A stretch of DNA of 64,000 nucleotides, taken from assembly GCA_000004985.1 (NCBI GenBank), contig GG738854.1, one strand, 5' to 3'. The first letter of the stretch is position 1; every line of letters begins with the position of its first letter. Positions 1,488 through 50,235 of this stretch are shown here, piece after piece. Below the pieces are notes generated by a model. That model ran no database searches. It was given only the letters and a program-made list of their open reading frames with translations, and was not told the DNA's origin. Source of the stretch: Naegleria gruberi (taxonomy: Eukaryota). Both the position numbers and the translations under genes were made by a program.

Positions 1488-2603
1488 TTATAAGGCATTC
1501 AAAATTTCTTCCAACCCCTTAACAACTCTCGAATAATCATCTTCATATCCAATTGCTAATCTGATGAAGGTGTGACCGTCATGCTCTTCAGGCCAGGGGT
1601 CAGTTCTTGATGTTTTACCTCCAAATGACGTTTTGTGTTCAATAATCTTGACACGAGTCAATACACCCAAAATTTGAGATTTACTTCCTTTAACCTTGAA
1701 AGTGAAAACACTTGGTACTAGAAATTCATCCAGCACCTTAGAGAAATACTTGGAAACTAGGGTATTTGTTGGATGTGTAGAAATCATAGGATGATTAATT
1801 TCCAATACTTTTGGGTGTTTGCTCAAGTATTCGGTAATTAACCTTTTAGTCAACTTGGAAGAGTTCTCAATCCTCTCATCGATACTGTACATTTGTTGAG
1901 TAATCAATTCACAATGGAATGGAGAGACATGATTTCCATTCACTATCATCCATTCTTCAATGTGTTTCAGTGCATTCTTTGACCTAGCCAAAACATAACC
2001 TCCAATACAAGTTCCAGCACTATAGTACTTTGTCATTGACGAGACAACATAATCGACTTGTTTCACACTAAATGGATTGAAAATAGTTTCAGTCAACCAA
2101 GTATTATCCACAATAGTTGTCAATGACTTTGAAAGTGATTCCAATTTCTGTAAAATTGAAAAATCAAATATTTTACCATTTGGATTAGAACACGATTCAA
2201 AGAACAAGACATTCACTTGTTTCAACAACTTTTTGTCTTGAAATTGTGAAATAATTTGCTGAGGTTTACCAACATCCACACTCACCAAGTTAATCTTAAA
2301 GCTTTTAGCCAACCAATTGAATAATCTTGGCGAATCACAATACAGTTCATTGGAATAGATTAAATTAATTGGTCCAAACTTATTTTGACTTATAATTCCA
2401 TGGAGAGTAGCACTAATGGATTGAATTCCAGAAGATACCAATTGACAAGCTTTTGCATGAGGTTCATGTCTCTTGATGAGTAATTCTTGGAGTTCAATAT
2501 TCTCTGGTGATGATGACCGATTGTAGAAGAATTTTCCTTCAGACCCTTCACCGAGAACTAGATGTTCATCTTGGAATCGTTCGTTGGTGTGTTGTTGCAT
2601 CAT
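1488..2603 (-). CDS. PLP-dependent enzyme of the Cys/Met-metabolism (gamma) family, divergent
   Basis: 371-aa ORF. The 'VVSSMTKYYSAG' segment matches the Ser-x-Thr-Lys PLP-lysine motif of cystathionine gamma-synthase/lyase-type enzymes. Overall architecture matches that family (aminotransferase-like N-terminal part, C-terminal small domain). More divergent than the canonical cystathionine gamma-lyase at 49042-50235. Confidence 0.6.
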   Translation of the reverse strand: MMQQHTNERFQDEHLVLGEGSEGKFFYNRSSSPENIELQELLIKRHEPHAKACQLVSSGIQSISATLHGIISQNKFGPINLIYSNELYCDSPRLFNWLAKSFKINLVSVDVGKPQQIISQFQDKKLLKQVNVLFFESCSNPNGKIFDFSILQKLESLSKSLTTIVDNTWLTETIFNPFSVKQVDYVVSSMTKYYSAGTCIGGYVLARSKNALKHIEEWMIVNGNHVSPFHCELITQQMYSIDERIENSSKLTKRLITEYLSKHPKVLEINHPMISTHPTNTLVSKYFSKVLDEFLVPSVFTFKVKGSKSQILGVLTRVKIIEHKTSFGGKTSRTDPWPEEHDGHTFIRLAIGYEDDYSRVVKGLEEILNAL

Positions 2604-2748: not shown

Positions 2749-4701
2749 TCAATCTCTTTTATTGACAAGTTCAAAAGATGCAACATTAGAATACGATGTC
2801 AAATATTTGCAAATTGATTCACATGATTTGAAAGATTGCTGATTATCAAGAATGAAACTGAGACATGAAATGATTCTATCGCAAGAAACATCATGATTCT
2901 TAAATTCCTGCTCTGAGAATTGTTTCAATATTTGGAATGCATGACCAACATATCCAACAGCATCAGATTGTGAAAGATTTTCATGAGCTTTCCAATATTG
3001 AGTGGTGAAAAGATCAAATACCTTTGAGTATTCTTGGAATTTGTTATTCTTTTTGGAATTTTCCAAAGAGTACAACCATTCGTCATCTTGATCATCTAAC
3101 TTTTGAGCAATGACATCATATATTGTGAAAATTGAATCGTCTGAAGTTTCGGTTACTTTTTGAATCCTATCTAGAGGTCTATACACTAATTTCTGTGAGG
3201 AGGAAATTGAGCAATCGTCAGTAATGATTTTAACATTGAATTTAGAGGCCAATTGAGAGGTCTTTGCCTGTTCAGAAACTGAGCCAACCATACTGAAATA
3301 TCTTGCAGTTGAAGATCCAATATTTCCAACATAACCATCTCCAATAGAAACACCAACCCTGGCTGTGATTTTCTTTTGTAAACTTTCAATTACCTTTACA
3401 ATTTTCAAAGCTGCATCAAATGCCTTTTCTTGAAGTCTTACATCTACACTGTTACTATTCAGTGATAATTGAAATTCATCACATGAGAAGACGTTTAAAT
3501 TTCCTTGAGATAGTTTTACAATTGGACCAAGAAGGTTTACAATATCTCCAAAAATAGTTGTAATACTGTCAGGAGATTTTGATGACAGTCCATCAATTTT
3601 GACATGAATAACTGCACAACCCTTCTTGGATAAACCCATCTTGAATAAATTGGAGGCGTGCTGACCCTTTTTCATTGTGCTCTTACTTGAAAAGTGACTT
3701 CTGGAGGCGTTTGAGGCAGAAATTGAATTTCTTGATATTTCTGCATTCTTTTCCAATTCTTGTTGATTTTCAACATGTTCTAAGTGTTCATTTTGAATCT
3801 GTTCAAATACTGATTGAGGAATGAAAGTTTTAATTTCAGCAAGCCACTCAACTGTATTCTTCAAATTATTGAAAATTGAGTTCACTTCTCTAAACATGGA
3901 ACTGTTATTCGAAACACTACCCAAATCAAGAACTTTGATTCTTTCGAATTGCTTCTCCAAGAACTTCATAGGTCTCGAAACAACTAGTCCAGTAACAAAA
4001 CTTCCAACAATTCCAAGAACAATAATTCCAACAGTGACACCAATAGAAATTGAAGTTGTCAAAATCAAAGCTTCAGTCACCTCTGATTCGTACAAAACAA
4101 AGAAAATGTTCCACTGCATATTTTCCAAAACATACTTGTACGGAGTAATGATATAGCTAACACCATCAGATTCTCCCACAATTTTCATCACAGATGGCAA
4201 AATACTAAATGTTCTATTGTTCAACTCGTAGAATTGTTTCATTAGTGAACCAGCATTTCTCGACTTGACATCAAAGATGTTTGTGCTATTTAAACCATCT
4301 CCTGAAATGGTATCGATGGATCCACCAATGACAATGAAATTGTCCTGAGCTACCAGAACGTAACCTCTTCCCAGTAATTCAATCTTGGAGAGAAAGTTTA
4401 CAATCGTTTCTAGTGAAAGATTAACTTTGGCCAATCCAACCAATGATTTCGTCTTGTTTAGTTTGTAAATTTCTGGATCGTACATTAATTGAGAATAATA
4501 AATGGCAACTGTACTTCCCAAAACCTTGTATGGTTCTCCATACACTCCTTCCAACCCCTTTTCGTAATAGTTTTTCAATGTATAAATGAAGAAATCTTGT
4601 TTGGCAGGTACGTAAGGAGTCAAGTCAACTGTAGAATTGACTTTTACAATGTCTCCTGTGGTGATGTTCACAATATCTCTCAATGGTGCCTGGATATCCA
4701 A
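2749..4701 (-). CDS. receptor-type protein: extracellular dCache-like sensor, TM, and degenerate class III nucleotidyl-cyclase homology domain (downstream part, after the transposon insertion)
   Basis: The long minus-strand ORF continues the dCache-like ectodomain (YGEPYKVLGSTVAIYYSQLMYDPE...GYVLVAQDNFIVIGGS). A TM segment follows (ILTTSISIGVTVGIIVLGIVGSFVTGLVV). The C-terminal region has cyclase-homology motifs (AVIHVKIDGLSS..., RVGVSIGDGYVGNIGSSTARYFSMVGSVSEQAKTSQLA) but lacks several canonical catalytic residues. The ORF-track start at 4848 lies inside the inserted element, so the true upstream exon is 5414-5998. Confidence 0.55.
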   Translation of the reverse strand: MDIQAPLRDIVNITTGDIVKVNSTVDLTPYVPAKQDFFIYTLKNYYEKGLEGVYGEPYKVLGSTVAIYYSQLMYDPEIYKLNKTKSLVGLAKVNLSLETIVNFLSKIELLGRGYVLVAQDNFIVIGGSIDTISGDGLNSTNIFDVKSRNAGSLMKQFYELNNRTFSILPSVMKIVGESDGVSYIITPYKYVLENMQWNIFFVLYESEVTEALILTTSISIGVTVGIIVLGIVGSFVTGLVVSRPMKFLEKQFERIKVLDLGSVSNNSSMFREVNSIFNNLKNTVEWLAEIKTFIPQSVFEQIQNEHLEHVENQQELEKNAEISRNSISASNASRSHFSSKSTMKKGQHASNLFKMGLSKKGCAVIHVKIDGLSSKSPDSITTIFGDIVNLLGPIVKLSQGNLNVFSCDEFQLSLNSNSVDVRLQEKAFDAALKIVKVIESLQKKITARVGVSIGDGYVGNIGSSTARYFSMVGSVSEQAKTSQLASKFNVKIITDDCSISSSQKLVYRPLDRIQKVTETSDDSIFTIYDVIAQKLDDQDDEWLYSLENSKKNNKFQEYSKVFDLFTTQYWKAHENLSQSDAVGYVGHAFQILKQFSEQEFKNHDVSCDRIISCLSFILDNQQSFKSCESICKYLTSYSNVASFELVNKRD

Positions 4702-4761
4702 GAGGGTAATATGTATCCGTGTTATCCAGCCAACGCTGGATTGAAAGGATTTTGTCAGATG
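4702..4761. repeat. left terminal inverted repeat of the MITE
   Basis: 60/60 match to the reverse complement of 5354-5413. Confidence 0.9.
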
Positions 4762-5353
4762 GGATCCACTGTAAGTGGATCCCATCAAGACAAAGCCAGG
4801 ATAAAATGGATAATGGATGGATATTTCCGATTTTATTGGATTCTGCAAAATACAATTTAGTACACAGAAGAGCTGCTATTATTTCAGTTGGCAAACTAAC
4901 ACAGAAAGACTCATATCTACAAGCAACAGATCCAATTCATCACGTGAATCAAGTCAACATATTGGAATTGGTAGAATTGGTAGAATCGGAAGTTAATCAC
5001 AAATTTATTCATCTAGTGATTGTATTAAGAGAGATCAAACAAAAATAACAATAAATGATATGATTATAATTCAAATTGGAAATAGTTGGAAAAAAAGCAA
5101 GATTTAATAGAAGAGTTTGAGTGAATGTGCAGTGTTATTTTCTTTGCAGAACTAATAAGAAATGCACAAGATGGTAAATTGCAAGATCTTAGCCATGAAT
5201 TCCATTGGCTATACGAAAGTTTTGAATCAGTTTAATGATGGTATTGATTGGTTACTCGCCCCCCTTTAATTTTATCCATTAAATCCAGATTTTTCCTTGA
5301 TTTATCTGATTTATCCAGATAAAAATCCACTGGCAGTCGACGGAATCCACTTA

Positions 5354-5413
5354 CATCTGACAAAATCCTTTCAATCCAGCGTTGGCTGGATAACACGGAT
5401 ACATATTACCCTC
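5354..5413. repeat. right terminal inverted repeat of the MITE
   Basis: 60/60 match to the reverse complement of 4702-4761. Confidence 0.9.
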
Positions 5414-5998
5414 ATATCCAAAAGGTTGATAGGCAAAAACTGGAAATGGATTACTCGTGGTTCCACTAATAGTATAGGTGTATCTGGATGGGAGAGGAAC
5501 ACTGAAGAAGAATCCACAACCAGTAGTTCGAAATTCTACAAACTTTGGAAACAAGTAATTTCTAAACATGGGAATGGTCACAACACCTGTGGTATATTCT
5601 CTGGCCATGGTTTTGGTCAATTTGGCGATTGGTGTCATAACACCATCTAGATAGGTTATAATCTTTCTTCCAGATTCGTTTATGAGCTTGGTCGACAAAT
5701 CATTAATTGCCTTCTCTGTTACCAGATAAGAAGATAGCCAAACCAATAAACACCCACTTAGAATCATTACTGAAATAATTGAAACAATAAAGAGATTGAG
5801 TGGAATAATACCTGTGCAGCAAGTACGCGGCTGTGTCTTTGGATTGAGTGGTTCTTTGATGGCCACAACGGATGGAGTTGTCTGTTCCTCATACTCACTT
5901 CCTGATGGTGCAACTTTAGTCATTGAAACTGAAGGATGATGATGATGTTTTTTCTTATTGTTTTTCAATACAATTACGAAAGAGCTGCTAATTTGCAT
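5414..5998 (-). CDS. 5' exon of the same receptor gene (N-terminus, signal-anchor TM, start of the dCache domain), separated from the rest by the MITE
   Basis: ORF 5351-5998 (-) encodes MQISSS...HHHH, then a TM (IISVMILSGCLLVWLSSYLV), then a Cache-like start (EKAINDLSTKLINESGRKIITYLDGVMTPIAKL...). It reads straight into the element TIR and stops after 19 TIR-encoded codons. The flanking frames differ by +1 even after in-silico excision. Confidence 0.5.
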
Positions 5999-6183: not shown

Positions 6184-7924
6184 TTGAAAACTATTCAACA
6201 AATCTCGTGCTTGAGTACTCTCCAATTAAAAATGTCGGAACCAACTAACAGCAACATTCTGGACGGCACGCAAGAAATTACGTGGGAGGAAACGCCTAAT
6301 AAAGAAGCCGAGGAAATTGAAGAAATACTTCGACGATTTTTGCACTCATTGTGTGATATTTATAATACAAAGTCTAAAACAAATCATACAATCGGTGCTA
6401 TATGTGATACAATTTTCACCAAGAATGGAATTGAGTTGTTTGTTGATAGTTGCACAGAGAGTAAGGCAAAAGGAATTGAAATAATTGAACAATTATTAAT
6501 GATGGAGCCTGCTAATAGTTGTTGTGAAGGGAAAATTATTGAGGAGGAGATTCAACAACTAAATCACAACGACAACACTAGTACCTACAAAAAAGTACTG
6601 GCTGAAGAAAATAGAACATTCTTGGATCAACATAATGTAAAGTTGGATGATAATACTTTCAATTTTTGTGTAAACTTTCAAATATGTTTCAAGATTGAAC
6701 CAACAACCAGTAATATTGCAGACACAACAAGGATTTCCAGATTTGATGGCACTTCTTCATCCAATACTCGAATATTTTCTCTATTCGATCCTTTATTAAA
6801 CTATTCTAAATTCACAAAAGCTGGAATAGAAAACGAGTGGACATATCTGACTTGCATTATTGAAAATGCATGTTTAAGTAACGATCAGCTTTTATTCCAA
6901 ACGTAAGTACTAGTTCTGTTTAAAACAACAACTTTGAAGAGATGGCCCCTTTAACATGGTAGACGAATGTTTGGATCGAGCCCTGAAATTTTGTGACATC
7001 CCATCCTATTCTTTCACGTCATCTTTGAAAAGGGATTGTCATGTAATTGCTTCAGTTGATACCACTCTAAATCACATATGCCTTGTTATAGAACACCAAC
7101 GAGACAATTGCTCTTCCATTTGGAAACACAAAGACTTTGCAAAAATCCTCTTATTGATGAGAACATGTTTGAAATCTTCCATGTTAACAGCTCAAAGAAA
7201 CAGAAAACATTGCCCAAAGCCGTTAAGAACATTTGGAATTTTGTCTTCTAGAGACAATATATTCATACTCTGCATGCAAGCCGATTTACTTTCTGTTGAG
7301 AATGTTCAAATCGAGACTTTTGGAATTGAGTACGCATTGACCTCACATGCATTCTCGTTGAACAAAGAAGAGGAAAGAGAACAATTTATCGAGAAACTTA
7401 CAGCTCATTTAGATTATTTCAGAGCTATTTCTCTTGTTGAAAAGGAATACCAATTTTTGTCATCACCTAACACATCAATAAGCAAATTGAGAAGAGGACG
7501 CTCTGTGATGGTTTATGAAAGTTTTTTAACATCAGATAATAATATGATCAATGTTTATCCACAACTTTCAAGTATGAAAGAATATTTCAAAAATTATGAT
7601 TTTGAATTCAAAAAAGAAATTGGTATTGAAAAACCAATGTTTGAAAAGCAAACAACACATTTAGCGGTTATCCCTTATTCGAAACTGAATGAATTTGAGT
7701 TGAATTCGTACACCAAAGTAATGGTTGTTGGTTTTGTAGCAACAACCAATTTGCAAGGTTTTATATTTACTAAAAACAAAACTTCCAAATTGCAAAAAAA
7801 GGATTCAAATTATACAAAATATACTGCTGATGATGAAGAAAAATTGACAAAGATGATGAAGATTACAAAGAAAAACCAAATACATTCAATAAGAGAAATA
7901 GGAATACCAAAGGAACAGGATTAA
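6184..7924 (+). CDS. hypothetical protein, two exons (6184-6902, 6940-7924)
   Basis: ORF 6184-6906 ends at a GTAAGT donor (6903). The acceptor AG at 6938-6939 restores the frame into ORF 6956-7924 via a 37-nt intron. No recognisable domain. Confidence 0.45.
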
Positions 7925-14093: not shown

Positions 14094-15054
14094 TAAACTT
14101 AAATATTTTACAACACTCAATTTAGCGCTTATTTTCTTGTAAACGTTTCACGTTAATCAAAATTCCAGTTAAACAATAAAATGAATCTCCTGAATATGTG
14201 AGGGTCTTGAGATGGAAATTGAAATATACGAATACCATCCTTATTAATTTCAACATCGCTTATCATTTGGGAATGGATAAGAGTGTACAGCATGGCATCT
14301 GGGAAATTGGAAATTTTATCTGTGCTCAATTTAAATTGAGAAAATCCTACTTAAACAATAATATTATCGTCAGTGCTGTCCATATTATTTGACCCATAGC
14401 AATACTTTTCTCTAATGAGTCTTCTTTCTTCTAGTTTCCATGTCCTTTCTACTAATCTATCAATGGAATAAAATGGTATTAAACAAGAGGCCAATGTACA
14501 TTCTCCTATTATTCTCATGTTTCAACAGATTTATCAGTTATGTGGTTTAATAGGTTATACTTCAGCTATGAATATGGGACCACTTGCGTTGACTGGAGCT
14601 TTTCTTGGTTTTGAGTTTGCTGGTTATTTATTGAGCTTGACCTTGTGGATATATTGTCAGGCAGTCATCACCAAAGTTCTTTATGGTGTCTACTTTAATG
14701 AAAATCAGGCATGGATGAGACTTTCGAAAGTTCATTCTATTTGTAAGAAAGTGGTACTAATCTGGTTGCATTTTTCAATTCATTGTTGATATTGACTTTT
14801 ATCCTAATAGGAATGATTTTTTTAATTTGTCGGCCCCCCATGAATATTTCGTTTGTACCATTGACCAAAAGGAAATCAACAAACAAGAATGAGGTTGAAA
14901 AAAGGGATGAAAAGGCAAAAGTTTCTAACAAGATTATGGCTGAAACAATTGTAGACACAATCGAACCAACAATTACAAACACTGTGCAATAAAATCCCTT
15001 CACTTATCTATTAATCACCATTTCAAATCCTTTTTTTCATCTTAAAACAAAAAA

Positions 15055-15174
15055 GACTACAACACCACAGGTTCCCAAGTTGTCTCCAACCTCAGTACTG
15101 ATGTGGCTCGACGATGCTTAACTTCTCAAATCGGACGGGATGAGGTGCATTCATCGTGATATGGCCGTAGCCAT
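15055..15174 (-). rRNA. 5S ribosomal RNA gene, copy 1
   Basis: The minus-strand sequence GCTACGGCCATATCACGATGAATGCACCTCATCCCGTCCGATTTGAGAAGTTAAGCATCGTCGAGCCACATCAGTACTGAGGTTGGAGACAACTTGGGAACCTGTGGTGTTGTAGTC aligns along its whole length to eukaryotic 5S rRNA. This includes the box A region (AGTTAAGC) and the GTACT...GGAGAC...TGGGAA block. It is followed by an oligo-T Pol III terminator. Confidence 0.9.
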
Positions 15175-15793: not shown

Positions 15794-16246
15794 ATGATGC
15801 TTAATTGTCAATTCAGTGATGAAATTATCAAAACCTATGAAGAAATGAGAATGGGAAAGGGTTCGAATAAGGATAAAAAGTTTCTCGTATTAAAAATGCA
15901 AGAAAGTTCCATTCAAATAGATCAAGAATTGTCCCAACTCTCTTCATTGGACGAATTAACTGCCAATCTCCCACCAAAGAATTCTCGTTTCGTTTGCTAT
16001 CATTTAAGTTTCGAAATGCCATCCCAAAACGAAACTTGTCAAATCAGAGAAGGAACCAGAACCAAAATGATGTTTCTCACTTGGTGTCCAAACGAAACCA
16101 ATGTTAAGGAAAAGTTTCAAGTTGCTGCCACTGTCAAAACAGTTAAACAAAAATTAAATGGTCTGAGTGCAACTATTCACTGCTCAACCAAGAGTGAAAT
16201 TGATGAAAAGTCAATGATTGAAAAATGTTTAACTTTTATGAAATAA
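15794..16246 (+). CDS. ADF/cofilin-family actin-depolymerising protein
   Basis: 150 aa, and the similarity to yeast/animal cofilins is collinear. Example matches are EEMRMGKGSNKDKKFLVLKM ~ the KYKFILF region, LPPKNSRFVCYHLSFE ~ LPENDCRYAIYDFEYE, and KMMFLTWCPNETNVKEKFQVAATVKTVKQKLNGL ~ [34 protein letters not shown]. Confidence 0.75.
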   Translation: MMLNCQFSDEIIKTYEEMRMGKGSNKDKKFLVLKMQESSIQIDQELSQLSSLDELTANLPPKNSRFVCYHLSFEMPSQNETCQIREGTRTKMMFLTWCPNETNVKEKFQVAATVKTVKQKLNGLSATIHCSTKSEIDEKSMIEKCLTFMK

Positions 16247-16733
16247 TAGACATGAAAACCAACAATTATAAAAATGTAAATAAATGTAAATACTAATAGA
16301 TGTAATTATTCCAACAAAGCTGAACTCTAAAATTGAATCATATTTTAATTATTAATAAATTCAAACCACATGCAAAGAAATGCAGAAATAACATCACTTT
16401 GTAATAGCGATGAATTTTTACATGGTTCATAAGAAACATAACTGCAACCCAAACCAACAACAACGTCTGCTGTCCAAAAATCTGTTTCTGTTCAAAATAT
16501 CTTTTCATTTTGCCGTGCAATTTTAAAATCAATCGGAAACTATCTCTGGACATTGTTATTATATGAAAACATCTATTAAGAAAAACCTTAAAAGACTCAG
16601 ATCAGAATTTTAACACTTGTATTAATAGCTGTACAATTGCAGCAAAATAGGCAAAATTGTTGTTTAGCCATATTTCAAACTTGATAAAGGACTTTGGCAA
16701 TAAGCTTAGTGTAAAATGCAAAATAGGCAAAAA

Positions 16734-16853
16734 GACTACAGCACCACAGGTTCCCAAGTTGTCTCCAACCTCAGTACTGATGTGGCTCGACGATGCTTAA
16801 CTTCTCAAATCGGACGGGATGAGGTGCATTCATCGTGATATGGCCGTAGCCAT
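16734..16853 (-). rRNA. 5S ribosomal RNA gene, copy 2
   Basis: Differs from copy 1 at one position near the 3' end. Flanks are unrelated and there is a T-run terminator. Confidence 0.9.
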
Positions 16854-17067: not shown

Positions 17068-17526
17068 TTAACCACCTCTCAATCTCAATACTAAATGCAC
17101 AGTTGAATCCTTTTGAAGATTGTAATCACCAATAGTTCTTCCATCTTCCAATTGCTTACCGGCATAAATCAATCGTTGTTGATCTGAAGGAATACCTTCC
17201 TTATCAAATATCTTTTGTTTCATATTCTCAACAGTAGCATTCGATTCCATTTCAATAGTGATTGTCTTTCCAGTTAAAGTTTTTACAAAAAGTTGCATTC
17301 CTCCTATTAATCTCCACACCAAATGAAGTGTTGAATCTTTCTGAATGTTATAATCATTAATAGTTCTGCCATCTTCCAATTGTTTTCCAGCAAAGATGAG
17401 TCTTTGTTGATCTGGAAGAATTCCTTCCTTATCATGTGCCTTTCTTTTCACATTTTCAATTGAATCATTAGATTCAACCTCCAAAGTGATAGTTCTTCCA
17501 GTGAGTGTCTTGACAAATAATTGCAT
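17068..17526 (-). CDS. tandem di-ubiquitin-like precursor with two diverged ubiquitin units, each ending in GG
   Basis: 152 aa made of two 76-aa units. Unit 1 is [76 protein letters not shown]. Unit 2 is [76 protein letters not shown]. Each is about 75-80% identical to canonical ubiquitin and differs from the other unit. The stop follows the terminal GG directly. Confidence 0.85.
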
Positions 17527-24445: not shown

Positions 24446-27000
24446 ATGTTGACTACATCAAGGAGTTCATCATCACTGAGTTTACAGTCCTTTTCTAGTG
24501 GTTCAAAGTTAATGTCCTTTGAACAATTTAATGAAAAGTTTAATCAACCAAAATTACTCTATCAACATTCATCAGATGTTGTTCAAGTTTATCAATATAA
24601 TGAAACATCATCATCAACACATAGCTGTTTGGTGTTTGTACATCACGGTACACTTCTTCAAACAGGTAGATTATTTAAGAAATTAATTGATAACAACAAG
24701 TTAATGCCAAACGTAATGCCATACGATGAAGCATATAAAGACGAGGAGGAATATGACGCATCATATTATATGGTCTGTAGAGACTCTAGTGTTTTGAATG
24801 CCTATCAGTCACAACAGGTTAAAACTCTTGAGGATGTTTTCAATGATCCTACTGCCATTCACATGTTAAATGATTTTGTAGCATTGAAGAATCTGATATT
24901 GGATATTGCTAACGGCCTCAGACAATTGCACAGATCTGAATTGACTCACAATAATTTATATGCCTATACTGTTTTACTTGTTAATAACAAAAATTACGAT
25001 GGAACTGCTAGGTCACAGGCTAAGAGAGCCATACTTCAATTCCCTGGTATTGGTATTTCCTATTTATTACATATTGGATCAGATATTAATTATGCTCCAG
25101 AAGTCACTCACCACACAGAATTCTCTAAAGAAAATGATGTATTCATGTTTGGTTTGTTGGTTCTCAAAATATTGACATTCAGAGATTTGAATATTCATGC
25201 AGAAAACTTTGAATGGAAGAAGGATGTGCAAGAAAAAATAGCAGCTAGATTTGGAGCTAAAGCCTCTTCGCCCTTCATTAGATCTCTAACTGCTTTAGCT
25301 AAGGAATGTGTTCTTTCTCAATTCAGACCAACTTCGGATCATTTAGTTTCTAGAGTTAATGCTTTATCGGAAAAGGACGAAAAAGTGACACAACCAGTTA
25401 TGGATGATTACGACTATGAGGATAGCTTTGCTTCTCTTGGTGTTGGTAGCTCACATTACTTTGATTCTTCGGACGCTCCTCATTTGAATAATTATGGTGA
25501 GGAAGATTTCCAAGTACATAACTTTGATGCAGGTCCAGTCATTATTGATATGGACGAAGATGATGAAGAATCTGATACTTTAAGTGGAGAAGTATTCGAT
25601 AAAAGAAGAAAATCAAGTAGAATGGTAAGTGAAAATTTGGATTTATTAATAACTGTAATTTTTAGTCTGCCAATTTGAGTAGTATGAAGGACACATTAAA
25701 GGATAGACTCAATGAACTGAATCCGGAAGAGGAAGTAAAACTAACAGGTATTAAGAAATTATTTGCCTGTTTCTTTGGAGGTCATGAAAAGATTGACCAT
25801 GATGGAGCTAACAGAATTGATTTATATACAGCAACAGCTAACGAACAATCACAGGAGGATGCTCTCCCTGATTATTTGATTGAAGGTAAAAAGAAAAGAG
25901 AAACACTGTTTTGCGAGAAATTAATCAGAAGAGTACCTAGTGGATCAATCATTCTTGTAAAGGATGAAAAGACAAGAACCAACATGACAATGAAAAAATG
26001 TACAAAGGGAAATGAGGAATTTTATGAAAGGGAAATCAAAGCTTTGAAACAAATGGATCACCCACGTATAACCAAGTATATTGATAGCTTTGACTATACA
26101 GACGATGACCACTATACCGATCACATTTCAAAACACATAGTTCTCAAGTACTATCCAAATAGTGACTTGGAAGATTGTTTCCTTAGAAAGAAGCCAAAGT
26201 TTGTGCTGTCACCTGTTTTATTTATGAAGATAATAACTCAATCATTTGAGGCTCTAGCCTATTTGAATGAAATTTCGCGTGTTCATGGTAATATAACCCC
26301 AGCAAATATTGTATTGGATGATTCGATGAATGTTGTGTTTGTCGATTTTGCTTTCAGTTGGAGAAAGGATGAAAAGATTACGTTTGTAGTTAAAAGTAAC
26401 TACACAGCTCCAGAACAAAAGATTGGAGCTTTAGCAAATCCAATGTCTGATATTTTCAGCTTGGCTACCTCTATGCTTGAATTATTAATGGGAGAAAGAA
26501 TAGATATCAAGACTTTGAAAAATCAAAATATGACAGTAACAGATGCTCTGCGATTAATTTTGGGCAATGATAATTTTACTCACAAATTTTCAGTATTGCT
26601 CAATAACCCAAACCTCAACACTAAGAATATTGGAGAAATATTAAGAGATGCCTCTGCCTTGGATGTTCAAAACAGAAAACCAGCTGCACAGATAGCTAAG
26701 GATTGTGCCAACCTGAGAGAACAAGTAGCAGCAATAGCTATTCAAAGATATTATCGTGGTTCAAAAGTTAGAAAACAGTACAAAGACAAATTACCTAAGA
26801 AGGAGCAAAAACAAAATCTCACCAGAAGAGAGATTAGAAGAATCAAAGCAAGTCAAAGTAATTACGCAATCAGTTCCATTTCCAAAAGTAGTAGCAGTTA
26901 TGGCATTGCATTACACAACAGAACTAACTCTGCCACAATGACAGGTATCAGCAGATCAACCAGTATTGATGATTCTATTGCTCGATCACTCATGCTCTAA
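24446..27000 (+). CDS. two-domain protein kinase-like protein with C-terminal IQ motif; 2 exons joined by a 42-nt intron (25624-25665)
   Basis: ORF 24446-25678 ends ...RRKSSRM at a GTAAGT donor (25624). The acceptor TTTTTAG at 25665 continues in frame into ORF 25675-27000. Domain 1 is kinase-like but degenerate (LHRSELTHNNLYAYTVLL). Domain 2 has IKALKQMDHPRITKYIDSF, HGNITPANIVLDDSMNVVFVDFAFS, YTAPEQ and DIFSLATSMLELLMG. IQ motif at IQRYYRGSKVRKQYKDK. Confidence 0.55.
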
Positions 27001-49041: not shown

Positions 49042-50235
49042 TTAGAGAGTAACATGAGAGAAGGCAGTTTCCAAATCTTGAATTAAATCTTCAACATCTT
49101 CAATACCACAGCTCAATCTGATCAAAGTATCATCAATACCGAGCTTTTGTCTCAATTCGAGTGGAACTGAAGCGTGAGTCATAATGGCAGGATGGTTAAC
49201 CAAACTTTCAACACCACCCAAACTTTCAGCCAATTGGAATACCTTCAAGTTTTCAAGGAATTGTCTAGCTTGAGTAATATCACCCTTAATCCAGAAAGTG
49301 ATCATACCACCGAAACCAGTCATTTGTTTCATGGCAATATCATATTGTGGGTGTTCTTCCAAACCTGGATAAGTGAGCTTGGCAACCTTTGAGTGACCTT
49401 TCAAGTATTTAGCAACAGCAATACCAGCAGCTTGATGTTGACGCATACGAACGTGCAAAGTCTTCAAACCTCTCAAAGCCAAAAAGCTGTCGAATGGTGA
49501 TGGAATAGCACCCATAGCATTTTGCAAATATTTAATCTTCTTGTAGATTTCTTCGTTGGCAGTAGCACAAACACCCATAACAACATCACTGTGACCGTTC
49601 AAATATTTAGTGACAGAGTGCATGACAATATCAGCACCATGATCTAATGGTCTTTGGAAATATGGTGACATGAAAGTGTTATCGACAATGAGAATAGCTT
49701 GTGGACAATATTCCTTTCTCCAATTATGAACTCTAGCAATATCAGTAATACGCAAAGTTGGATTAGTTGGAGTTTCCAACCAGATGAGTTTGGTCTTTTC
49801 TCTAACAGCTTGCTTGAATTCATCTTCCTTGTTCAAATCAATGAAAGAGAATTCGAGTCCAAACTTGCCAGCAACTTGTCTGAAATAACGTCCAGTACCA
49901 CCATAAACATCATCAACAGAAATAACGTGATCACCTTCACTCAACATGTGCAACAAAGTGGTAGTACATCCGAGACCTGAACCAAAAGCACAAGCATATT
50001 TGCCATTTTCCAAAGCAGCAACACAACCTTCGAAAGCATCACGAGTTGGATTGGCGGTTCTGGCATATTCATAATGACCAGGATAGTGAACACCTGGAGA
50101 AACTTGAGCAAAAGTAGAACTCAAGGAAATTGGTGTAATGACAGCACCAGAGTGTTTATCTGGTTCTTGTCCAGCATGAATAGCATCAGTTCCAAAATGA
50201 GCGAATGGGGCAATGTTAGTGATTTGTTGAGACAT
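49042..50235 (-). CDS. cystathionine gamma-lyase (Cys/Met-metabolism PLP-dependent gamma-family enzyme)
   Basis: 397 aa, single exon. Alignable over its full length with cystathionine gamma-lyases: FGTDAIHAGQEP, ISLSSTFAQ, YARTANPTRDAFEGCVAALENGKYACAFGSGLGCTT, DDVYGGTGRYFRQVA, ETPTNPTLRITDI, VDNTFMSPYFQRPLDHGADIVMHSVTKYLNGHSDVVMG (PLP-Lys), LAESLGGVESLVNHPAIMTHASVP. Confidence 0.9.
   Translation of the reverse strand: MSQQITNIAPFAHFGTDAIHAGQEPDKHSGAVITPISLSSTFAQVSPGVHYPGHYEYARTANPTRDAFEGCVAALENGKYACAFGSGLGCTTTLLHMLSEGDHVISVDDVYGGTGRYFRQVAGKFGLEFSFIDLNKEDEFKQAVREKTKLIWLETPTNPTLRITDIARVHNWRKEYCPQAILIVDNTFMSPYFQRPLDHGADIVMHSVTKYLNGHSDVVMGVCATANEEIYKKIKYLQNAMGAIPSPFDSFLALRGLKTLHVRMRQHQAAGIAVAKYLKGHSKVAKLTYPGLEEHPQYDIAMKQMTGFGGMITFWIKGDITQARQFLENLKVFQLAESLGGVESLVNHPAIMTHASVPLELRQKLGIDDTLIRLSCGIEDVEDLIQDLETAFSHVTL

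What the first reader, a model, noticed from the sequence alone, without database searches (positions are those of the whole stretch)
4694..5421. MITE-like DNA transposon with 60-bp perfect TIRs and 8-bp TSD inserted into the coding exon of a receptor gene
The structure is the classic DNA-transposon footprint, seen directly in the sequence: TSD(ATATCCAA)-TIR(60 bp)-AT-rich core-TIR'-TSD. Because the TIRs are perfect, the insertion may be recent or the family may still be mobilisable. The element splits the dCache ectodomain-coding region. Both flanking reading frames run open for hundreds of codons, so this looks like a fresh gene disruption. An 8-bp TSD points to hAT, P, Merlin or MULE-type transposase families. 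The termini (GAGGGTAATATG...) do not match the common hAT CAG/TAG start, so the family may be undescribed.
Basis: seen in the sequence. Interest (0 to 1): 0.7.

Follow-up and report, generated by a model that had tools for sequence, protein, structure and literature searches.

The report
Small transposon splitting a Naegleria receptor gene
A 712-base non-coding "cut-and-paste" transposon has landed inside the coding sequence of a receptor-type cyclase gene of the amoeba Naegleria gruberi and broken it, which is an ordinary kind of event.

Summary
[quoted passage not shown] The window is Naegleria gruberi DNA. The element sits in the ectodomain-coding part of an intronless Cache-like/cyclase receptor paralogue on the minus strand. 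An uninterrupted homologue carries the target sequence once, so this is a true insertion and not an intron.

New points:
- Each arm carries six copies of TGGAT in about 140 nt (0.37 expected). These are probably transposase-binding sites.
- The target, TGGATATCCA, is an inverted pair of that same motif and occurs only once in the window.
- Precise excision would not restore the gene. An extra G at 4681, 13 nt from the duplication, shifts the frame.
- The public gene model XP_002680337.1 starts at an ATG inside the element.

I found no second copy and no transposase, but the N. gruberi genome itself could not be searched. The superfamily is therefore unresolved. hAT-like is the best fit: the 8-bp duplication matches nTnnnnAn and the terminus reads xAGGG. 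MULE and Merlin each fail one defining feature.

Verdict: a real, young, ordinary MITE-like (miniature inverted-repeat element) insertion. Interest is modest.

The parts
4694..4701 (.). Left copy of the 8-bp target-site duplication (ATATCCAA; TTGGATAT on the gene's sense strand)
   Evidence: Identical to 5414-5421 and directly abuts the TIR. The uninterrupted homologue L002 has this sequence once.
4702..4761 (+). Left terminal inverted repeat, 60 nt, starting GAGGGTAATATG
   Evidence: 100% complementary to 5354-5413. Unique in the window.
4702..4845 (+). Left arm: the TIR plus a subterminal region with 6 copies of TGGAT (element positions 36, 75, 106, 113, 117, 136). A 13-nt local hairpin lies at 4758-4786.
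   Evidence: Motif count is 6 against 0.37 expected per 170 nt, and 0 in the 372-nt middle. The arms align with indels out to about 140 nt. Hairpin I6.
4762..5353 (.). Internal region with no coding capacity
   Evidence: Stops in all six frames; the longest ORF is 109 aa. A six-frame translation searched against 5.8 billion proteins hit only P0001, which overlaps the element itself. No Rfam family at a meaningful score. Only two tiny 9-nt tandem repeats.
5273..5413 (-). Right arm: the TIR plus a subterminal region with 6 copies of TGGAT read inward (positions 36, 65, 85, 97, 127, 136 from the right end)
5354..5413 (-). Right terminal inverted repeat, 60 nt
5414..5421 (.). Right copy of the 8-bp target-site duplication
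5422..5998 (-). 5' part of the disrupted host gene: N-terminus, first transmembrane helix and the start of the Cache-like ectodomain. The likely true start is the ATG at 5923 (MTKVAPS...).
   Evidence: ORF 5351-5998. It aligns with the N-terminal parts of paralogues P0002-P0004 and P0006.
2749..4693 (-). 3' part of the disrupted host gene: the rest of the ectodomain, second transmembrane helix, linker, and a divergent class III cyclase-homology domain
   Evidence: ORF 2749-4848. 100% identical to P0001. hhalign to a dCache_1 + Guanylate_cyc protein gives 98.8%. Weak Pfam Guanylate_cyc hit, E 0.0034.
4681..4681 (-). Extra G on the sense strand (ACC ATT G AGA GAT). This +1 frameshift relative to all homologues lies 13 nt 3' of the TSD.
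   Evidence: After in-silico excision the upstream frame reads FGYPGTIERYCEHHH...stop, and the downstream ORF is in another frame. The homologue DNA reads ...CCA GGA ACC ATT CGT GAT.... Paralogue alignment.
4691..4700 (.). Pre-insertion target: the perfect 10-nt palindrome TGGATATCCA, two inverted copies of the arm motif. Coordinates are those of the left flank copy after in-silico excision.
   Evidence: It occurs once in the reconstructed 63-kb window, at the insertion site. 12-mers containing both TGGAT and ATCCA make up 0.025% of positions.
4783..4785 (-). Start codon of the public gene model XP_002680337.1 / NAEGRDRAFT_64468, lying inside the element
   Evidence: P0001 starts MGSTYSGSHLTKSFQSSVGWITRIHITLLDIQAPL. 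That is 28 element-encoded residues followed by 7 residues of TSD and host codons read out of frame (coordinates).
5349..5354 (-). Consensus-type splice donor GTAAGT on the gene's sense strand, starting at the last base of the right TIR. Relevant only to the unproven splicing rival.
   Evidence: It is the only GTAAGT on the sense strand between 6000 and 4500. Putative introns in the window use GTAAGT. 3 of 27 downstream AGs would give a full-length ORF, which is about the chance rate.

Best explanation
Window 4702-5413 is a non-autonomous (MITE-like) class II cut-and-paste DNA transposon of Naegleria gruberi.

Mechanism, inferred by analogy with known DDE-transposase elements. A transposase encoded elsewhere in the genome binds the TGGAT repeats in the two roughly 140-nt arms. 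It cuts at the ends of the 60-nt TIRs and joins the element to target DNA cut with an 8-nt stagger. Repair of that stagger produces the 8-bp duplication.

This copy integrated into the palindrome TGGATATCCA inside the Cache-like ectodomain-coding sequence of an intronless receptor-type cyclase paralogue on the minus strand. It separated the N-terminus and first transmembrane helix from the rest of the protein.

Shown: the TIRs, the TSD, the arm repeats, the absence of coding capacity, an empty site in a homologue, and disruption of the gene.

Inferred: trans-mobilisation; youth of the insertion (no TIR or TSD mismatch, and the host ORFs otherwise intact); loss of gene function.

The allele carries a second lesion, a +1 G at 4681, so it is a young pseudogene or null allele and not a cleanly revertible insertion. 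The superfamily is unresolved. hAT-like is the best fit at roughly 40-45%, ahead of MULE-like, P-like and others.
For: - Perfect 60-nt TIRs and an exact 8-bp TSD, unique in the window.
- DNA fold z-score of -16, dominated by TIR pairing.
- TGGAT occurs 6 times per arm against 0.37 expected, and not at all in the middle.
- No coding capacity, no protein relatives and no RNA family.
- The host is N. gruberi and the host gene is identified.
- Paralogues and the intronless metagenomic homologue L002 are continuous across the site and carry the target once.
- Architecture is Cache-like ectodomain plus cyclase.
- Putative introns in the window are 37-70 nt with GTAAGT donors, unlike this 712-nt insert whose ends are GAGGG...CCCTC.
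- The TSD fits the hAT pattern NTNNNNAN and the terminus fits YARNG at 4 of 5 positions (features as stated in PMC3014272).
Against: - No second copy and no autonomous partner were found: not in the window, not in viral contigs, and not in JGI metagenomes, where the single hit was a chance match. No window ORF that was scanned has a transposase domain.
- The N. gruberi assembly could not be searched, so multi-copy status, a defining property of a transposon family, is untested.
- The extra G so close to the insertion is not explained by the integration mechanism.
- The first base, G, departs from hAT's Y, and 60-nt TIRs are long for hAT.
Confidence: 0.85

Rival explanations
1. The insert behaves as an intron. 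The pre-mRNA is spliced from a donor supplied by the element to an AG in the element or the flank. The donor would be either the consensus GTAAGT at 5354 or the weak G|GTAATA at the element tip. The gene would then still make a full-length receptor with a small or 45-residue change, and the extra G would be intronic or compensatory. This would be a transposon-to-intron transition, like the spliced Ds/dSpm alleles of maize or 'introner' elements.
For: - GTAAGT is the dominant donor among putative introns in the window, and the only one on the sense strand in 6000-4500 sits at the inner edge of the upstream TIR.
- Donor 5354 joined to acceptors ending at 4769, 4736 or 4679 gives ORFs of 862, 851 and 832 aa. 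The tip donor joined to the acceptor at 4677 gives FGY-E-DIVNITTG.
- The frameshift lies within 13 nt of the element.
Against: - In-frame combinations occur at the chance rate: 3 of 27 acceptors with the extra G and 3 of 27 without it. The G is therefore not specifically compensatory.
- The required introns (586-733 nt) are about ten times longer than the 37-70-nt putative introns in the window.
- Nearer AGs (25-58 nt after the donor) would be used first and lead into stop codons (my reading of the sequence).
- The element ends are not GT...AG.
- The tip donor hexamer GTAATA is not among the commonest donor hexamers of putative introns in the window.
- No protein model of a spliced form exists in the database.
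Confidence: 0.05
2. The extra G at 4681 is a base-calling or assembly error next to a hairpin-prone repeat. The real allele would then be a simple insertion whose precise excision restores the intact gene.
For: - It is the only frame-breaking lesion in about 814 host codons.
- It lies 13 nt from a strongly self-pairing element.
- Without it, the reading is exactly the FGYPGTIRD of the paralogues.
Against: There is no direct evidence of error. The base lies outside the inverted repeat, in a non-homopolymer context (ATTGAGAG). The public gene model uses the same frame.
Confidence: 0.2
3. The structure is an assembly or cloning artefact, or an ordinary ancestral intron, and not a transposition product.
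For: Only one copy was seen with the accessible data.
Against: - An exact 8-bp duplication of a sequence that is single-copy in the homologue is the signature of staggered-cut integration, not of chimerism.
- The homologue and paralogues have no intron at this position.
- The ends are not GT-AG, and the length is far outside the range of putative introns in the window.
- The motif-rich symmetric arms are typical of transposase substrates.
Confidence: 0.02

Closest known systems
hAT-superfamily non-autonomous elements and MITEs (e.g. maize Ds1; the hAT-N families catalogued in animal genomes)
   Same: The TSD is 8 bp and fits the NTNNNNAN target pattern. The terminus xAGGG resembles YARNG and Ac's CAGGG/TAGGG (the Ac comparison is from my own knowledge). 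Short subterminal repeats cluster within about 150 nt of both ends. There is no coding capacity. hAT features as stated in PMC3014272.
   Different: The first base is G, not C/T. The perfect TIR is 60 nt, against the usual 10-25 nt. No hAT transposase partner was identified.
Mutator-like elements (MULEs) and their non-autonomous derivatives. A MuDR-type element with a 9-bp TSD is reported in N. gruberi (PMC3164196).
   Same: Long arms carrying internal binding-site-like repeats. A G-initial terminus (maize Mu begins GAGATAATTG, from my own knowledge). The superfamily is documented in this species.
   Different: MULEs are defined by 9-11-bp TSDs and TIRs of typically 100-500 bp (PMC3310237). 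Here the TSD is exactly 8 bp, and the inverted repeat is perfect for only 60 nt.
P-superfamily elements and their MITE BuT5 (PMC3698922)
   Same: An 8-bp TSD. A MITE of about 1 kb with an internal sequence unrelated to the master copy. Sub-terminal inverted repeats.
   Different: P termini (CATGATG..., from my own knowledge) and the 31-bp TIR do not resemble this element. I found no report of P elements in Naegleria.
Spliced transposon insertion alleles (maize Ds/dSpm) and introner elements of algae and fungi (from my own knowledge: Wessler and colleagues; Huff et al. 2016; Gozashti et al. 2022)
   Same: A DNA transposon sits in a coding exon and brings a consensus splice donor near its end.
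   Different: There is no evidence of splicing here. In-frame donor/acceptor pairs are at the chance rate. The length is far above that of putative introns in the window. No family of such insertions in genes is shown.

Membership tests
Class II TIR transposon, non-autonomous (MITE-like) | Terminal inverted repeats at both ends | tested here: met
   60 nt, 100% complementary. Imperfect extension to about 140 nt.
Class II TIR transposon, non-autonomous (MITE-like) | Target-site duplication of fixed length directly flanking the TIRs, with the target single-copy at an empty site | tested here: met
   The 8-bp ATATCCAA appears twice. The homologous gene in L002 has TTTGGATATCCAGG once and is uninterrupted. 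This is a homologue, not an allele, so it is only a proxy for an empty site.
Class II TIR transposon, non-autonomous (MITE-like) | Small size and no transposase coding capacity | tested here: met
   712 bp. Stops in all frames. The six-frame search hit only P0001, which overlaps the element itself.
Class II TIR transposon, non-autonomous (MITE-like) | Multiple dispersed copies with different TSDs in the genome | not testable with these tools
   No copy elsewhere in the window, in viral contigs or in metagenomes (one chance hit).
Class II TIR transposon, non-autonomous (MITE-like) | An autonomous partner sharing the termini | not testable with these tools
   No transposase domain among the 30 window ORFs scanned, which include every ORF of at least 233 aa. 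The rest of the genome could not be reached.
hAT superfamily | 8-bp TSD | tested here: met
   Exactly 8 bp. Criterion from PMC3014272.
hAT superfamily | Target pattern NTNNNNAN | tested here: met
   ATATCCAA and its complement TTGGATAT both have T at position 2 and A at position 7. The chance is about 0.1, so this is weak evidence. Patterns listed in PMC3014272 Table 1.
hAT superfamily | Terminal motif YARNG | tested here: not met
   The terminus is GAGGG. Positions 2-5 fit (A, R, N, G) but position 1 is G, not C/T.
hAT superfamily | Mobilised by a transposase with a hAT dimerisation domain | not testable with these tools
   No partner was found.
Mutator / MULE | 9-11-bp TSD | tested here: not met
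   The TSD is 8 bp and the flanking bases differ. Criterion from PMC3310237.
Mutator / MULE | Long TIRs, typically 100-500 bp, harbouring binding sites | tested here: inconclusive
   60 nt are perfect, and similarity continues with indels to about 140 nt with repeated TGGAT.
Merlin | 8- or 9-bp TSD and TIRs of 24-462 bp | tested here: met
   8 bp and 60 nt. Criterion from PMC8101967.
Merlin | Conserved terminal 5'-GG-3' | tested here: not met
   The terminus is 5'-GA (GAGGG). In addition, the Merlin survey of Discoba reports only Euglena and two kinetoplastids and never mentions Naegleria.
P superfamily | 7-8-bp TSD, about 31-bp TIRs with sub-TIRs / THAP-binding sites | tested here: inconclusive
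   The TSD length fits. The TIR length and sequence do not resemble the canonical P element. THAP sites were not tested (criteria from PMC3698922).
Spliceosomal intron / introner element | GT...AG boundaries that remove the insert and keep the frame | tested here: not met
   The ends are GAGGG...CCCTC. Internal and flank donor-acceptor pairs that keep the frame occur at the chance rate (3 of 27). The length is ten times that of putative introns in the window. RNA evidence is not available.

The most novel reading that the evidence does not exclude
The element belongs to a still-active and so far undescribed DNA-transposon lineage of Heterolobosea. Its transposase reads TGGAT both in the element arms and in the target, and so homes to TGGAT/ATCCA palindromes. 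In addition, this copy may be partly spliced from the receptor mRNA through the GTAAGT at its TIR edge, which would be a snapshot of a transposon turning into an intron.
Probability: 0.08. Interest if true: 0.6.

Novelty: new member of a known kind. Interest (0 to 1): 0.3.

Why it matters
Naegleria genomes are poor in transposons. N. lovaniensis has 3.4% repeats and 1.25% DNA transposons (PMC6125883), and only a small fraction of N. gruberi repeats can be classified (PMC12344493).

A copy with flawless ends and an intact duplication inside an otherwise open gene suggests that a cut-and-paste transposase was active recently in the lineage of the sequenced strain. That would be of practical interest as a possible insertional-mutagenesis tool for an organism with few genetic tools.

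It also corrects a public annotation. XP_002680337.1 begins inside the transposon and lacks the true N-terminus and first membrane helix.

Beyond that, this is a textbook insertion.

Tried and rejected
1. Other copies. A TIR 30-mer with up to 3 mismatches in the window found only the two arms. Window-wide inverted and direct repeat scans found nothing related. A 22-mer in IMG/VR found 0 hits. A 20-mer in JGI metagenomes gave one hit, L001, which diverges immediately after the 20-mer, has no inverted partner and sits in unrelated GC-richer DNA, so it is a chance match. A six-frame translation of the element against 5.8 billion proteins hit only P0001.

2. Reaching the N. gruberi assembly through exact-protein look-ups failed for window ORFs, P0001, P0003 and P0004. 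Only the metagenomic homologue P0002 was retrievable.

3. A transposase in the window. Pfam scans of 30 ORFs, including every ORF of at least 233 aa, found ordinary cellular genes only.

4. A known RNA or SINE-like origin. Rfam at E<=1 gave only noise, and there are no tRNAs.

5. Literature. No paper describes this element or its TIR sequence. The N. gruberi genome paper and the Yuan & Wessler superfamily paper are not held.

6. Ordinary intron: rejected.

7. A compensatory-frameshift/splicing rescue looked attractive at first. It lost its force when the same number of in-frame acceptors (3 of 27) appeared with the extra G removed.
Full report
**Observation.**
- ATATCCAA at 4694-4701;
- a 60-nt arm at 4702-4761 (GAGGGTAATATG...CAGATG);
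- 592 nt of internal sequence;
- the perfectly complementary arm at 5354-5413;
- ATATCCAA again at 5414-5421.

The bases outside the two octamers differ, so the duplication is exactly 8 bp. Nothing else in the 64-kb window comes close. The next-best inverted repeat is 45 nt at 73%. A 30-mer of the arm with up to three mismatches is found only at these two places, against 0 expected. Folded as single-stranded DNA, the element is dominated by the arm pairing (z = -16). The internal region has the same GC content as the window (33%).

**Source and host gene.** The window is gene-dense, 33% GC and has long ORFs. The ORF downstream of the element on the minus strand is 100% identical to 'predicted protein [Naegleria gruberi]' (P0001 = XP_002680337.1 / EFC47593.1 / NAEGRDRAFT_64468) on a 665-kb scaffold.

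Four N. gruberi paralogues (27-45% identity) and one metagenomic homologue (P0002, 49% identity) have a common layout: N-terminus, transmembrane helix, an ectodomain of about 330 residues, a second transmembrane helix, then a C-terminal region. Pfam sees only a sub-threshold Guanylate_cyc match. A profile of the family aligns at 98.8% probability (E 1e-16) with a protein carrying dCache_1 and Guanylate_cyc domains. That alignment starts just downstream of the insertion site and runs through the cyclase domain. 'Receptor with a Cache-like ectodomain' is therefore supported by remote homology. The insertion lies in the ectodomain, about 170 codons after the likely start (ATG at 5923).

**It is an insertion, not an intron.**
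- All homologues read ...(F/Y)G(Y/F)(P/I)G(T/S)-(I/Y)RD.(I/V)NITTG... across the site.
- The metagenomic homologue is one uninterrupted 796-codon ORF. Its DNA reads TTT GGA TAT CCA GGA ACC ATT CGT GAT, so it contains the target TTGGATAT once.
- Putative introns in the window have GTAAGT donors and are mostly 37-70 nt. This insert is 712 nt with GAGGG...CCCTC ends.

**Anatomy beyond the TIRs.**
- The two arms remain alignable, with indels, to about 140 nt.
- Each 170-nt end contains six copies of TGGAT in the same inward-reading orientation. That compares with 0.37 expected from the window frequency and none in the 372-nt middle.
- Clustered short subterminal repeats of this kind are the usual transposase-binding sites of hAT, P, CACTA and Mutator elements (established knowledge).
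- The interior has stops in all frames, no protein relatives, no Rfam match of note and only two trivial 9-nt tandem repeats.

**Target site.** After in-silico excision the target is TGGATATCCA. This is a perfect 10-nt palindrome made of two inverted copies of the arm motif. It occurs once in the reconstructed window, at the insertion site. Only 0.025% of 12-mers contain both TGGAT and ATCCA. This suggests that the DNA-binding specificity which reads the arms also helped capture the target. It is a single case, so it remains a lead.

**Consequence for the gene.** Removing the element and one duplication (720 nt) does not rejoin the reading frames. The upstream frame continues FGYPGTIERYCEHHH... 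to a stop, while the downstream ORF (...RDIVNITTGD...) is in another frame. Comparison with the homologue DNA and the paralogues shows one extra G on the sense strand at window 4681 (ACC ATT G AGA GAT), 13 nt past the duplication. It is the only frame-breaking lesion in about 814 host codons.

The locus is thus a young pseudogene or null allele with two lesions. Their order is unknown. A random indel falling this close to the insertion has roughly a 1% chance (my estimate: about 35 nt out of 2.5 kb), so the proximity is unexplained. A base-calling error is one possible answer.

The public gene model starts at the ATG at 4785 inside the element. Its first 28 residues are element-encoded, and the next seven (LDIQAPL) are the duplication and host codons read out of frame.

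**Splicing rival.** The sense strand has a consensus GTAAGT exactly at the inner edge of the upstream TIR (5354), the only one between 6000 and 4500. Joining it to AGs ending at 4769, 4736 or 4679 gives full-length ORFs. However, that is 3 of 27 acceptors, and the same number (3 of 27) is obtained after deleting the extra G. The required introns would be 586-676 nt in a window where putative introns are about 40-70 nt. Nearer AGs would lead into stop codons. I therefore rate functional splicing as unlikely (about 5%), though it cannot be tested without RNA data.

**Family.** No other copy and no autonomous partner could be found in the window, in IMG/VR, in JGI metagenomes or among predicted proteins. 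Copy number and superfamily therefore remain open. Measured against published definitions:
- **hAT** (8-bp TSD, NTNNNNAN, YARNG; PMC3014272) fits, except for the first base and the unusually long TIR.
- **MULE** (9-11-bp TSD, 100-500-bp TIR; PMC3310237) fails on TSD length, although MuDR-type elements exist in N. gruberi (PMC3164196).
- **Merlin** (terminal GG; PMC8101967) fails on the terminus and was not reported from Naegleria.
- **P** (PMC3698922) fits only in TSD length.

I rank hAT-like first, but below 50%.

**Verdict.** The finding is real and correctly interpreted: a MITE-like cut-and-paste transposon freshly inserted into a receptor coding exon. It is an ordinary kind of event and a new member of a known kind. 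It has three modest points of interest: a target that mirrors the arm motif, an unexplained neighbouring frameshift, and a mis-annotated public gene model.

Noticed in passing
window 15054-15172 and 16733-16851 (minus strand): Two 5S rRNA genes 1679 nt apart (Rfam RF00001, 102.8 and 105.4 bits). They differ at one position over about 125 nt. A 150-aa ORF (15794-16246) lies between them. They first appeared as a 154-nt direct repeat at 93% identity.
   Followed up: yes
window 2749-4785 (minus strand): The public model XP_002680337.1 / NAEGRDRAFT_64468 starts at an ATG inside the transposon. Its first 35 residues are artefactual (28 element-encoded, 7 out of frame). The true N-terminal exon sequence (5422-5923) matched no separate protein model in the homologue search.
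   Followed up: yes
window 4691-4700 after in-silico excision (target site): The insertion target TGGATATCCA is a perfect palindrome of the element's own subterminal motif TGGAT. It is the only such site in the window.
   Followed up: partly
window 4681: A single extra G shifts the host reading frame 13 nt from the target-site duplication. It is unclear whether this is a second mutation, a sequencing error, or something linked to the insertion.
   Followed up: partly
window 17068-17526 (minus strand): A 152-aa ORF made of two ubiquitin-like units, encoded by a 228-nt tandem duplication at 75% identity.
   Followed up: no
window 1488-2603 and 49042-50235 (both minus strand): Two Cys/Met-metabolism PLP-dependent enzyme genes in one window. 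One is canonical (Pfam E 2.5e-148) and one is divergent (E 1.9e-44).
   Followed up: no
window-wide, e.g. 6903-6939, 25625-25665, 62288-62248, 63205-63168: Putative spliceosomal introns are very short (about 37-70 nt) and almost uniformly start with GTAAGT.
   Followed up: partly
L002 820-3210 (JGI metagenome 3300002220): An environmental contig encodes an intronless homologue (49% identity) of the disrupted receptor. It matches the window at 20 of 21 nt around the target site, which points to an uncultured Naegleria-like organism.
   Followed up: partly
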